Shown here: in pieces, positions 1,876-2,072 of the stretch
How positions within the stretch are numbered: position 1 is the stretch's first letter
How the letters are laid out: every line of letters begins with the position of its first letter
DNA from: Moraxellaceae bacterium
GTDB lineage: Bacteria; Pseudomonadota; Gammaproteobacteria; Pseudomonadales; Moraxellaceae
Assembly (NCBI GenBank): GCA_030646295.1
Contig: JAUSND010000006.1
Location: forward strand, 1-32,000
Direction of reading: 5' to 3'
Length of the DNA stretch: 32,000 nucleotides
Made by a program: the position numbers and the translations under genes
The notes under the pieces: model-generated
What the model was told of the DNA's origin: nothing
Seen by the model: the letters and a program-made list of their open reading frames with translations, nothing else
The model's database searches: none

Positions 1876-2072
1876 ATGAACTCCCACTTGCTAGATTCGG
1901 GCTCGAGGCCCATTCGACTGTTCGAGTGCATTTGGGTTGGGGTGCCGCCACTCGCTTGTTAACGGTCTCGGCTTGCCGGAACCTTCATTCAATCGGGCTG
2001 GCACCCCAGTAGCCTGTTGCTGCAGGCTACGGGCCTCACTCTACAGCTCAGTCAGGCACGGGCAAGTGTCAT
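1876..2072 (-). ncRNA. Candidate bridge/seek guide RNA in the IS110-family 5' leader
   Basis: The non-coding leader lies between the IS end and the transposase start. Short segments in it match the target flanks and IS termini (details in findings), and there is a stem-loop GTAGCCTG 2010-2017 / CAGGCTAC 2024-2031. RNA boundaries are not determined. Confidence 0.45.

What the first reader, a model, noticed from the sequence alone, without database searches (positions are those of the whole stretch)
1885..1961. The IS leader contains a mosaic of short segments matching both target flanks and both IS termini: a candidate programmable bridge/seek RNA
Reading the transposase-sense (- strand) leader, I find six matches.
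1. 1961-1952 reads UAACAAGCGA. This is complementary to the right-end junction TCGC|TTGT|TA (+ strand TAACAAGCGA 888-897, 10/10).
2. 1928-1921 reads CACUCGAA, identical to the left target flank (complement of 2081-2088, 8/8).
3. 1921-1915 reads ACAGUCG, identical to the last bases of the IS right end (complement of 895-901, 7/7).
4. 1917-1911 reads UCGAAUG, again matching the left flank (2079-2085, 7/7).
5. 1896-1888 reads AUCUAGCAA, complementary to the right target flank TTGTTAGAT (885-893), with 8 Watson-Crick pairs plus one G-T.
6. 1891-1885 reads GCAAGUG, complementary to the IS left terminus CACTTGC (2062-2068, 7/7).

Same-sense matches go to one half-site and antisense matches to the other. 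They sit on either side of a small hairpin (GGGC-cucga-GCCC, 1900-1912). That is the geometry reported for IS110-family bridge RNAs and seekRNAs, in which guide loops pair with opposite strands of the left and right halves of target and donor.

Six matches of 7 nt or more to four specific half-sites within about 80 nt are unlikely by chance. The implied target is the conserved 5' arm of this integron's attC family. That would make the RNA a natural attC-programmed recombinase guide.

One speculative point: a -35-like TTGACG lies at the extreme right end (complement of 905-910), facing outward. This is as expected if circularisation creates a junction promoter for the leader.
Basis: partly seen in the sequence, partly recalled or inferred. 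Interest (0 to 1): 0.7.

Follow-up and report, generated by a model that had tools for sequence, protein, structure and literature searches.

The report
attC-targeting IS110 element with bridge RNA

Summary
All six matches exist at the stated coordinates. Short matches between the leader and the junctions are far more frequent than chance: 8 exact matches of at least 7 nt, against 0.85 expected.

The element (window 893-2075, minus strand, 1183 bp) is an IS110-family insertion sequence. It sits in the R'' end of an attC site. I aligned about 105 relatives and compared them with E. coli IS621. The leader has the canonical bridge-RNA architecture: a 5' hairpin, a target-binding loop and a donor-binding loop.

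- **Match 1 is real.** It is the right target guide plus the handshake guide, and it covaries with the right junction.
- **Match 3 is real.** It is the left donor guide, and it covaries with the right end of the element.
- **Matches 5 and 6 overlap the right donor guide (GCAAG) but were given the wrong partners.**
- **Matches 2 and 4 are coincidences.** They lie in sequence that is nearly invariant across the family, while the left target flanks of relatives differ.
- **The true left target guide was missed.**

The junction promoter idea holds at sequence level: TTGACG, 17 nt, GACACT. A circular 1183-bp metagenome contig carries exactly this junction.

Verdict: a new member of a known kind. 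It is not an IS1111-attC element. RNA expression and recombination activity were not tested.

The parts
893..2075 (-). Whole insertion sequence, 1183 bp, counted with one copy of the 2-bp core (C894 T893).
   Evidence: Uninterrupted attC relatives in the window read CTAACAA(C/T)TC. Homology with relatives starts and stops at these ends. Circular contig L108 is also 1183 bp and has the same RE-CT-LE junction.
907..1875 (-). IS110-family DEDD recombinase/transposase, 322 aa, ATG at 1875-1873.
   Evidence: Pfam PF01548 (3.6e-21) and PF02371 (2.1e-18). The catalytic D/E/D/D and the S-G motif are invariant in the alignment with homologues. It is 31% identical to the IS621 recombinase.
2078..2089 (-). 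Left target flank (LT): attC arm next to R''. Sense strand reads CCACTCGAATGA.
   Evidence: Direct reading. It belongs to attC repeat family D1.
2076..2077 (-). Left copy of the core dinucleotide, here GT (target-derived). The canonical core is CT.
   Evidence: Register taken from IS621 by homology. The first base varies among relatives at the left junction only.
885..892 (-). Right target flank (RT), TGTTAGAT. It is the complement of the attC R'' box (+ strand ATCTAACA).
   Evidence: RT begins TGTTA in nearly all relatives.
905..910 (-). -35 hexamer TTGACG at the right end, overlapping the stop codon.
   Evidence: A TTGAC-like hexamer lies at the same distance from the end in most of the relatives listed. 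The spacing in the circle junction is 17 nt. Promoter activity is inferred, not measured.
2065..2070 (-). -10-like hexamer GACACT at the left end. It is used only when RE and LE are joined.
   Evidence: TTGACG-17 nt-GACACT in the junction carried by L108. The Marinobacter-type relatives have TTGACA-17 nt-GATAAT. Inferred.
2009..2030 (-). 5' stem-loop of the bridge RNA (GUAGCCUG-CAGCAA-CAGGCUAC).
   Evidence: Each of its 8 pairs shows a change on both sides in some relatives (helices 1 and 2).
1995..2008 (-). Target-binding loop (TBL), outer stem, 5' strand.
   Evidence: Helix 3: 13 pairs, 98.9% paired, 11 with changes on both sides.
1984..1994 (-). TBL 5' side, GAUUGAAUGAA. The left target guide (LTG) is UUGAAUGAA at 1992-1984, same-sense to the left flank.
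   Evidence: This is the hypervariable segment of the family alignment. Cognate LTG-LT identity is 6.27 of 9 against 5.00 +/- 0.11 when permuted, 0/5000. Positions 2-8 are significant in a fixed register. L127 has the same LTG and a 9/9 match; L082 shows a U-to-G change matched by its flank. The window's own site matches 7/9.
1964..1983 (-). TBL inner stem-loop.
   Evidence: Helix 4: 6 of 7 pairs have compensatory changes.
1952..1963 (-). TBL 3' side, GUUAACAAGCGA. The right target guide (RTG) is 1962-1955 and pairs with CT+TGTTAG. The handshake guide is 1954-1952 and pairs with TCG of the right end.
   Evidence: Leader TAAC[A/C]AG against junction CT[T/G]GT: A-T 67, C-G 8, 2 exceptions, A-G never. 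Leader AG[C/U]G against LD GTC[G/A]: 45 and 29 concordant, 3 exceptions. The same holds again within the window's own clade (L113-L118).
1938..1951 (-). TBL outer stem, 3' strand.
1924..1927 (-). Putative outer stem of the donor-binding loop (DBL), 5' strand ACUC.
   Evidence: It pairs with GAGU at 1883-1880 and is almost invariant, so covariation gives no support either way (helix 5).
1912..1923 (-). DBL 5' side, GAACAGUCGAAU. The left donor guide (LDG) is ACAGUCG at 1921-1915, same-sense to the last bases of the right end. Match 4 overlaps its 3' part.
   Evidence: Leader A[C/U]AGUC[G/A] against RE CA[C/T]AGTC[G/A]: 73 of 75 concordant over three states. It is homologous to ACAGUAUC of IS621.
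1899..1911 (-). DBL inner hairpin, GGGC-CUCGA-GCCC.
   Evidence: Helix 6 is 99.4% paired. One pair shows a G-C to A-U change in 7 sequences.
1884..1898 (-). DBL 3' side, GAAUCUAGCAAGUGG.
   Evidence: UAGCAAG is invariant in the 41-sequence alignment. It stays CAAG in elements whose target reads CTGG, so it follows the donor, not the target. It aligns to UUGCAAGG of IS621. The extension AUC shows no cognate signal with RT (P = 0.4).
1880..1883 (-). Putative DBL outer stem, 3' strand GAGU, overlapping the Shine-Dalgarno-like GGGAG.
   Evidence: helix 5. Inference only.

Best explanation
Window 893-2075 (minus strand) is an intact IS110-family insertion sequence of the IS621-like subgroup. It has a long left end, a right end that extends only 13 nt past the stop codon, and a 322-aa DEDD recombinase. 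It is inserted in the R'' end of an integron attC site.

Its roughly 180-nt leader (about 2058-1880) encodes a bridge RNA with the canonical layout.

**Target-binding loop**
- It is closed by a 13-bp stem.
- The 5' side carries a left target guide, UUGAAUGAA (1992-1984). [quoted passage not shown]
- The 3' side carries a right target guide, UUAACAAG (1962-1955). [quoted passage not shown]
- A handshake guide, CGA (1954-1952), follows immediately. After top-strand exchange it would pair with the last bases of the IS right end.

**Donor-binding loop**
- It is built around the small hairpin at 1911-1899.
- The 5' side carries the left donor guide, ACAGUCG (1921-1915), matching the right end.
- The 3' side carries the right donor guide, GCAAG with flanking bases (1893-1887), matching CT+TGT at the left end.

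**Inferred cycle**
The excised circle joins the right and left ends. This creates the promoter TTGACG-17 nt-GACACT, which would drive the RNA. The RNA-recombinase complex then bridges the circle junction and an attC site and inserts the element in one orientation.

**What is shown and what is inferred**
- Shown here: the anatomy, the helices (by covariation), and the guide assignments for LTG, RTG, handshake guide and LDG (by covariation with flanks or ends).
- Inferred by homology with IS621: the CT core register, RDG pairing, the direction of strand exchange, RNA expression and protein binding.
For: - Recombinase family: Pfam hits; catalytic residues invariant; 31% identity to the IS621 recombinase.
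- Donor ends are homologous to IS621: ACAGT-nn-CT-TGTAT in both.
- The fold of the window leader is more stable than shuffles, z = -3.5.
- Consensus structure over 41 diverse leaders: 93.3% of cells paired, against 74.3% shuffled and 33-43% slid. 27 of 36 pairs show double changes.
- RTG, handshake and LDG covary with the right junction or right end. This recurs inside the window's own clade.
- The hypervariable LTG tracks the left flank.
- The RDG keeps CAAG where the RTG switches to CCAG.
- The family covariance model finds the IS621 bridge-RNA locus end to end as its best non-self hit. The score is weak: 12.1 bits, E about 0.02.
- Circular 1183-bp contig with the exact RE-CT-LE junction.
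- The architecture and guide rules are those described in PMC11208160 and PMC11208158.
Against: - No RNA or activity data exist for this element.
- The window's own left flank matches the LTG at only 7 of 9 positions. One close relative (L001) matches at only 5 of 9.
- Neither LTG nor LDG visibly pairs with the CT core, unlike IS621. The LTG ninth base against the first core base gives P = 0.08.
- RDG pairing rests on invariant bases, so covariation cannot confirm it.
- The DBL outer stem is invariant, so covariation gives no support for it.
- The match to IS621 at RNA level is weak, and cmsearch aligned the TBL region incorrectly.
- The core register (C1T2 or G4T5) is not settled by the sequence data.
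Confidence: 0.85

Rival explanations
1. All six segments are guides arranged around the one small hairpin, and CACUCGAA (1928-1921) and UCGAAUG (1917-1911) read the left target flank.
For: The matches exist. Four matches pile on the left flank, more than chance alone predicts.
Against: These two segments are kept across the family: ACTCGAA in 87 of 107 leaders and TCGAATG in 58 of 107. Of 28 distinct left flanks next to elements carrying both, only the window's own flank contains even a 6-nt piece of them. ACUC is likely a helix strand. A different, hypervariable segment tracks the left flank. Match 1 lies in a different loop, separated by stems with strong covariation.
Confidence: 0.04
2. The mechanism is the same but the core register differs. 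The crossover dinucleotide would be G4T5 of CTTGT rather than C1T2. Then UAAC is the whole right target guide. [A/C]AG[C/U]G is a 5-nt handshake guide reading the right end. AAG in the donor loop is a handshake guide reading the conserved CTT of the target.
For: It explains, without any heteroduplex, why the first base varies only at the left junction and the third base varies only at the right junction. LTG and LDG do not reach the CT.
Against: The donor is homologous to IS621 with identical spacing, ACAGT-nn-CT-TGTAT, and cleavage after CT is established for IS621 (PMC11208158). Under this register the right donor guide would shrink to about 2 nt. The same asymmetry is also explained by top-strand-only insertion (bioRxiv 10.1101/2025.10.25.684509).
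Confidence: 0.2
3. The 3' side of the donor loop (AUCUAGCAAG) also reads the target right flank, that is, the integrated right junction LD-core-RT. On this view it serves excision or target capture, as the reader's match 5 implies.
For: In the window it pairs with CTTGTTAGAT over 10 bp with one G-T. UAGCAAG fits target TGTTA better than donor TGTAT unless one base is bulged. Excision substrates bind across both loops in IS621 (PMC13626964 abstract).
Against: The three extra bases show no cognate signal with the right flank across 44 distinct pairs (P = 0.4). In elements whose targets read CTGG the segment stays CAAG. RDG pairing is reported to be discontiguous in IS621-type RNAs (PMC11208160), which accommodates a bulge.
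Confidence: 0.12
4. The leader is only a 5' UTR or translational control region, and the matches are chance.
For: The putative DBL outer stem overlaps the ribosome-binding site. No Rfam hit.
Against: Rfam 15 has no bridge-RNA family at all; IS621 itself gives no hit. Guide-junction and guide-flank covariation are not expected of a plain UTR. The leader loops are more conserved than the coding sequence among 79%-identical copies.
Confidence: 0.02

Closest known systems
IS621 and other IS110-group bridge RNAs (Durrant et al. 2024, PMC11208160; Hiraizumi et al. 2024, PMC11208158)
   Same: - The RNA is encoded in the left end, upstream of a recombinase of about 320 aa.
- The RNA is about 180 nt: a 5' stem-loop, then a target-binding loop, then a donor-binding loop.
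- 5' sides are same-sense to left halves, and 3' sides are antisense to core plus right halves.
- A handshake guide lies 3' of the right target guide.
- The promoter is split across the circle junction.
- The donor sequence is nearly the same (ACAGT-nn-CT-TGTAT).
   Different: - The recombinase is only 31% identical.
- The target is the attC R'' arm rather than REP elements.
- The right target guide is 7-8 nt rather than 4.
- The handshake guide is 2-3 nt.
- LTG and LDG do not visibly cover the CT core.
- Target and donor share 5 bp (CTTGT).
- The first core base of natural targets is often not C.
- The -10 box lies 4 nt further into the left end.
- The right end extends only 13 nt past the stop codon.
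ISEc21 seekRNA (IS110 type; Siddiquee et al. 2024, PMC11187229)
   Same: The non-coding region is upstream. The bottom-strand match lies 5' of the top-strand match. There is a circle-junction promoter.
   Different: The ISEc21 recombinase is longer (345-385 aa cluster). Its target is a linear site within IS3-family genes. Only the short target-reading RNA was defined as the seekRNA.
IS1111-attC group (ISPst6, ISKpn4, ISPa25; Tetu & Holmes 2008, Post & Hall 2009, cited in PMC11187229)
   Same: Orientation-specific insertion at one end of attC sites in cassette arrays. Targeting is RNA-guided.
   Different: Those elements are about 1.5 kb. Their guide RNA lies downstream of a 330-350 aa transposase. 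They have subterminal inverted repeats. The order of top- and bottom-strand matches is reversed. In the window element the non-coding region is upstream and only 13 nt follow the stop codon.

Membership tests
IS110-group (IS621-like) bridge RNA system | DEDD (RuvC-like) plus Tnp-domain recombinase with conserved catalytic D/E/D/D and serine | tested here: met
   PF01548 and PF02371. D, E, D, D and the S-G motif are invariant in a 21-sequence alignment. tblastn to the IS621 recombinase gives 31% identity, E = 1.7e-29.
IS110-group (IS621-like) bridge RNA system | Long non-coding left end upstream of the recombinase and a short right end | tested here: met
   The left end is 200 nt (2075-1876). 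The right end extends 13 nt past the stop codon to the core (906-894).
IS110-group (IS621-like) bridge RNA system | [quoted passage not shown] The first loop is poorly conserved and the second is conserved. | tested here: met
   The 5' hairpin and the outer and inner stems of the first loop have abundant compensatory changes. The 5' side of the first loop is hypervariable. The second loop is almost invariant. The outer stem of the second loop is invariant, so covariation gives no support for it.
IS110-group (IS621-like) bridge RNA system | The 5' side of the target loop matches the left target (same sense). The 3' side is complementary to core plus right target. | tested here: met
   LTG-LT permutation test 0/5000. 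RTG position A/C against junction T/G: 75 concordant, 2 discordant.
IS110-group (IS621-like) bridge RNA system | The 5' side of the donor loop matches the right end of the element. The 3' side is complementary to core plus the left end. | tested here: inconclusive
   LDG: 73 of 75 concordant over three states, so this half is met. RDG: GCAAG against CTTGT is invariant, so there is no covariation test. It does stay donor-like when the target changes.
IS110-group (IS621-like) bridge RNA system | A handshake guide next to the right target guide pairs with the donor bases left of the core | tested here: met
   Leader AG[C/U]G against right end GTC[G/A]: 74 concordant, 3 discordant.
IS110-group (IS621-like) bridge RNA system | Sequence and structure homology of the RNA to a characterised bridge RNA | tested here: inconclusive
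   The family covariance model R1 hits IS621 at 1457-1645 of L081, exactly from core to start codon. The score is only 12.1 bits, E about 0.02, and the target loop is misaligned. Rfam 15 holds no bridge-RNA family.
IS110-group (IS621-like) bridge RNA system | A promoter is reconstituted across the circle junction, and a circular intermediate exists | tested here: inconclusive
   TTGACG-17 nt-GACACT is present in the junction. A circular 1183-bp contig (L108, 90%-identical relative) carries that junction. No internal sense promoter was found. Promoter activity was not measured, and a tandem copy could also give that contig.
IS110-group (IS621-like) bridge RNA system | The RNA is expressed, binds the recombinase, and is required and programmable for recombination | not testable with these tools
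   No transcript or biochemical data are available.
IS1111-attC group (seekRNA downstream) | Long non-coding region downstream of a 330-350 aa transposase, and an element of about 1.5 kb | tested here: not met
   The non-coding region is upstream, the protein is 322 aa and the element is 1183 bp. Family features are taken from PMC11187229.
IS1111-attC group (seekRNA downstream) | Subterminal inverted repeats near both ends of the element | not tested
   No inverted-repeat scan of the element ends was run.
Integron attC site as target | The interrupted sequence is a member of an attC repeat family with an R'' (RYYYAAC) and an R' (GTTRRRY) box, within a cassette array | tested here: met
   Repeat family D1. 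The interrupted copy at 2068-2140 ends in GTTAGC, and its 5' part ATCTAACAA lies at 885-893. There are 12 CTAACAAYTC-like boxes on the + strand, against 2.9 expected. No intI gene lies within the window.
Integron attC site as target | Relatives are also inserted in attC sites | tested here: inconclusive
   The right flank begins TGTTA[G/T] in nearly all relatives, which is the complement of an R'' box. My inverted-repeat and folding tests were insensitive: only 21 of 57 reconstructed sites closed with GTTA:TAAC and 23 of 57 had z below -2. No attC covariance model was available.

The most novel reading that the evidence does not exclude
This element and about 100 relatives from marine and environmental Gammaproteobacteria may form an attC-dedicated clade of IS621-like elements with an upstream bridge RNA. 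I found no description of such a clade in the literature held here. It would be an independent, convergent counterpart of the IS1111-attC group.

Its natural junction polymorphisms give population-level evidence on mechanism. The first core base varies only at the left junction and the third base varies only at the right junction. The reciprocal class is never seen. This suggests that integration fixes only the top-strand product.
Probability: 0.3. Interest if true: 0.55.

Novelty: new member of a known kind. Interest (0 to 1): 0.38.

Why it matters
- It shows that bridge-RNA guide segments can be mapped from sequence alone in an uncharacterised IS110 element, using relatives.
- It corrects which segments are guides.
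- It identifies a compact system (1183 bp, 322-aa recombinase) whose natural target loop is tuned to the conserved R'' arm of integron attC sites. attC targeting was previously attributed to the IS1111 group, whose guide RNA lies downstream of the transposase.
- Such elements can interrupt cassette arrays and could influence cassette excision or expression.
- The family offers a natural series of reprogrammed left target guides, right target guides (A/C) and handshake guides. These could inform bridge-recombinase design.
- None of this is conceptually new.

Tried and rejected
- **Rfam 15.** There was no hit in the window at gathering or E-value thresholds. This is uninformative, because IS621 itself gets no bridge-RNA hit.
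- **Megablast of the element against plasmids.** No match.
- **tblastn against plasmids.** Only relatives at 47% identity or less, none close or carrying a useful IS name.
- **attC test in relatives by a 9-nt inverted repeat.** No better than the control, and it fails even for the window's own attC, so the test is insensitive.
- **attC test by folding reconstructed empty sites.** Equivocal, and biased by my selection of the lowest energy.
- **Donor-loop extension (AUC) as a guide for the right target flank.** No cognate signal.
- **Pairing of the LTG ninth base with the first core base.** Weak, P = 0.08.
- **Match 6 as an RNA helix or donor guide.** CACTTGC occurs only in the window; every other close relative shown has CACTTCC, CACTACC or CACTCCC. 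It also overlaps the -10 box, so it probably lies upstream of the transcription start.
- **Tetu & Holmes 2008** could not be read.
- **Literature search** for attC-targeting IS110-group elements other than IS1111 found none in the held library. This is not proof of absence.

Full report
**1. The observation**

Reading the minus (transposase-sense) strand, all six matches are present exactly as described. The hairpin GGGC-CUCGA-GCCC is at 1911-1899. TTGACG is at the complement of 905-910.

I compared the leader interior (1879-2050) with the two 36-nt junction regions. There are 8 maximal exact matches of at least 7 nt. Dinucleotide shuffles gave a mean of 0.85 and a maximum of 5 in 2000. So the excess is real.

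The matches are not independent. Four fall on one left-flank segment, TCCCACTCGAATG. The leader has an internal direct repeat (CACUCGAA / CAGUCGAAUG) and a complement of it (CGAGUGG).

**2. What the element is**

- The ORF 907-1875 (minus strand, 322 aa) has the two Pfam domains of IS110-family recombinases.
- The window carries an array of attC-like repeats. Twelve CTAACAAYTC-like R'' boxes lie on the + strand between 231 and 8963, against 2.9 expected.
- The interrupted attC reads ATCTAACAA | IS | CTCATTCGAG...GTTAGC.
- No integrase gene lies in the window.
- The element spans 893-2075, which is 1183 bp.

**3. Relatives**

- A protein search found thousands of homologues.
- I fetched 80 loci from genomes, 21 from metagenomes and 26 from contigs encoding close homologues.
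- Relatives down to about 45% amino-acid identity share the right end TTGAC-N-CACAGTC[G/A]-CT and the left end TGTATG. The right flank almost always begins TGTTA[G/T], the complement of an attC R'' box.
- Copies only 79% identical overall have nearly identical loop sequences in the leader.

**4. Comparison with IS621**

I retrieved an E. coli IS621 copy.

- Its donor is ACAGTAT-CT-TGTAT. This family has ACAGTC[G/A]-CT-TGTATG, with identical spacing.
- The recombinases are 31% identical.
- Rfam 15 has no bridge-RNA family, since IS621 itself gives no such hit. The absence of Rfam hits in the window therefore means nothing.
- A covariance model built from 41 family leaders finds the IS621 leader from core to start codon as its best non-self hit. 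The score is weak (12.1 bits, E about 0.02) and the target loop is misaligned.

**5. Structure**

The window leader folds better than shuffles (z = -3.5). On the 41-sequence alignment, RNAalifold and an explicit pair count gave:

| Measure | Named structure | Shuffled 3' partners | Partners slid 1-3 columns |
|---|---|---|---|
| Cells paired | 93.3% | 74.3% | 33-43% |
| Covariation score | 0.548 | 0.193 | 0.058-0.118 |

- None of 500 shuffles reached the observed value on either measure.
- 27 of 36 pairs carry changes on both sides.
- The stem closing the first internal loop has 13 pairs at 98.9% pairing.
- The layout is a 5' hairpin (2030-2009), a first stem-loop with a large internal loop (2008-1938) and a second around the small hairpin (1927-1880). 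This is the architecture described for IS110 bridge RNAs (PMC11208160).
- The outer stem of the second loop (ACUC/GAGU) is invariant, so covariation gives no support for it.

**6. Guides**

[quoted passage not shown] The 3' side is antisense to core plus the right half-site. A handshake guide follows the right target guide.

| Leader position | Partner position | Concordant | Discordant |
|---|---|---|---|
| TAAC[A/C]AG | right junction CT[T/G]GT | A-T 67, C-G 8 | 2 (A-G never) |
| AG[C/U]G | right end GTC[G/A] | C-G 45, U-A 29 | 3 |
| A[C/U]AGUC[G/A] | right end CA[C/T]AGTC[G/A] | 73 | 2 |

These counts are over 77 distinct combinations. The C/G state recurs in separate lineages, including the window's own clade (L113-L118).

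- **Match 1 (1961-1952)** is therefore the right target guide plus handshake guide.
- **Match 3 (1921-1915)** is the left donor guide.
- **The left target guide** is the hypervariable 9-mer on the 5' side of the first loop (window 1992-1984, UUGAAUGAA).
  - The best 9-mer identity to the cognate left flank averages 6.27, against 5.00 +/- 0.11 for permuted pairs (0/5000).
  - 42% of cognate pairs reach 7 of 9 or better, against 7.5% of non-cognate pairs.
  - In a fixed register, positions 2-8 are each significant.
  - In the window's clade, L127 has the same guide and a 9/9 flank. L082 has a U-to-G change matched by its flank. L120 has UUGGA matched by TTGGA.
  - The window's own site matches 7 of 9, no better than other attC sites in the array.
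- **The 3' side of the second loop (UAGCAAG)** is invariant in the 41-sequence alignment.
  - It stays CAAG in elements whose target loop and target read CCAG/CTGG. So it follows the donor CTTGT, not the target.
  - The window-specific extension that makes match 5 look like a target guide has no cognate signal (P = 0.4).
- **The partner proposed for match 6 (CACTTGC)** is absent from the close relatives. It also overlaps the -10 box.
- **Matches 2 and 4** lie in ACUCGAACAGUCGAAUG, which is kept across the family. Only 1 of 28 distinct left flanks, the window's own, resembles it.

**7. Promoter and circle**

Joining the right and left ends gives TTGACG-17 nt-GACACT. Marinobacter-type relatives give TTGACA-17 nt-GATAAT. 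A Logan contig from a 90%-identical relative is circular: 1213 nt with a 30-nt terminal overlap, which makes 1183 bp. It carries exactly this junction. No internal sense promoter was detected. Expression is inferred, as for IS621 and ISEc21.

**8. Comparison and novelty**

- The element works like IS621 and meets most defining features of an IS110-group bridge system. RDG pairing, RNA-level homology to IS621 and the junction promoter are only partly shown, and expression and activity could not be tested.
- It is not an IS1111-attC element. Those elements have the guide RNA downstream, are about 1.5 kb long and have longer transposases.
- The literature held here attributes attC targeting to the IS1111 group only. 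An IS621-like attC-targeting clade may therefore be undescribed, but the principle is known.

**9. Open points**

- The core register is not settled.
- LTG and LDG do not visibly pair with the core.
- It is unclear whether all relatives sit in bona fide attC sites.
- There is a junction asymmetry. The first core base varies only at the left junction and is always C at the right. This fits either top-strand-only insertion or a shifted core.

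Noticed in passing
L108 (Logan SRR15836103 contig), whole locus: This 1213-nt contig has a 30-nt terminal overlap, so it is a circular 1183-bp unit. Its right and left ends are joined as ...TTGACGATCACAGTCGCT|TGTATGACACT. 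It comes from a relative 90% identical to the window element. It indicates reads across a circle junction, or a tandem junction.
   Followed up: partly
Left and right junctions of about 80-90 related loci (L001-L128); window 2076-2077 and 893-894: The first core base at the left junction varies (C 57, A 15, T 5, G 3 of 80). At the right junction it is always C. The third base (T/G) varies only at the right junction. The reciprocal class expected from a heteroduplex core is never seen. This fits top-strand-only insertion (bioRxiv 10.1101/2025.10.25.684509) or a core register shifted to GT.
   Followed up: partly
L081 (E. coli NN5, NZ_CP126348.1) 1386-1460: The IS621 copy is preceded by a truncated second left end. 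That end stops exactly at the DNA encoding the left target guide (ATCGGGCCT), followed by a full element. It looks like IS621 inserted into the guide-encoding DNA of another copy, which mimics its own target.
   Followed up: no
window 231-8963, + strand: There are twelve CTAACAAYTC-like attC R'' boxes (2.9 expected) and several attC repeat families, forming a cassette array. The window holds only one IS copy and no integrase gene. Most of these boxes look as good a target for the left target guide as the occupied one (7 of 9 for the two I compared by hand).
   Followed up: partly
window 20647-29251: A 38-nt repeat family, CATTCGCGGCTGAAGCCGCTCCCAC..., has five copies in the region beyond about 20.6 kb. 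It looks REP-like.
   Followed up: no
UCCGGCA in the inner stem of the target loop matches right flank TGCCGGA. CGAGUGG and AGUGGGA match left flank TCCCACTCG. None is kept in the close relatives I compared by eye, so they look like coincidences or by-products of repeats inside the leader.
   Followed up: partly
L001 1280-1310 and 2480-2510: This closest genomic relative (a Moraxellaceae MAG) has an identical left target guide, but its left flank matches at only 5 of 9. The reconstructed site, CTATAACAGCTTGTTAGATAG, is a near-palindrome. It may be an off-target or an unusual attC or attI-like site.
   Followed up: no
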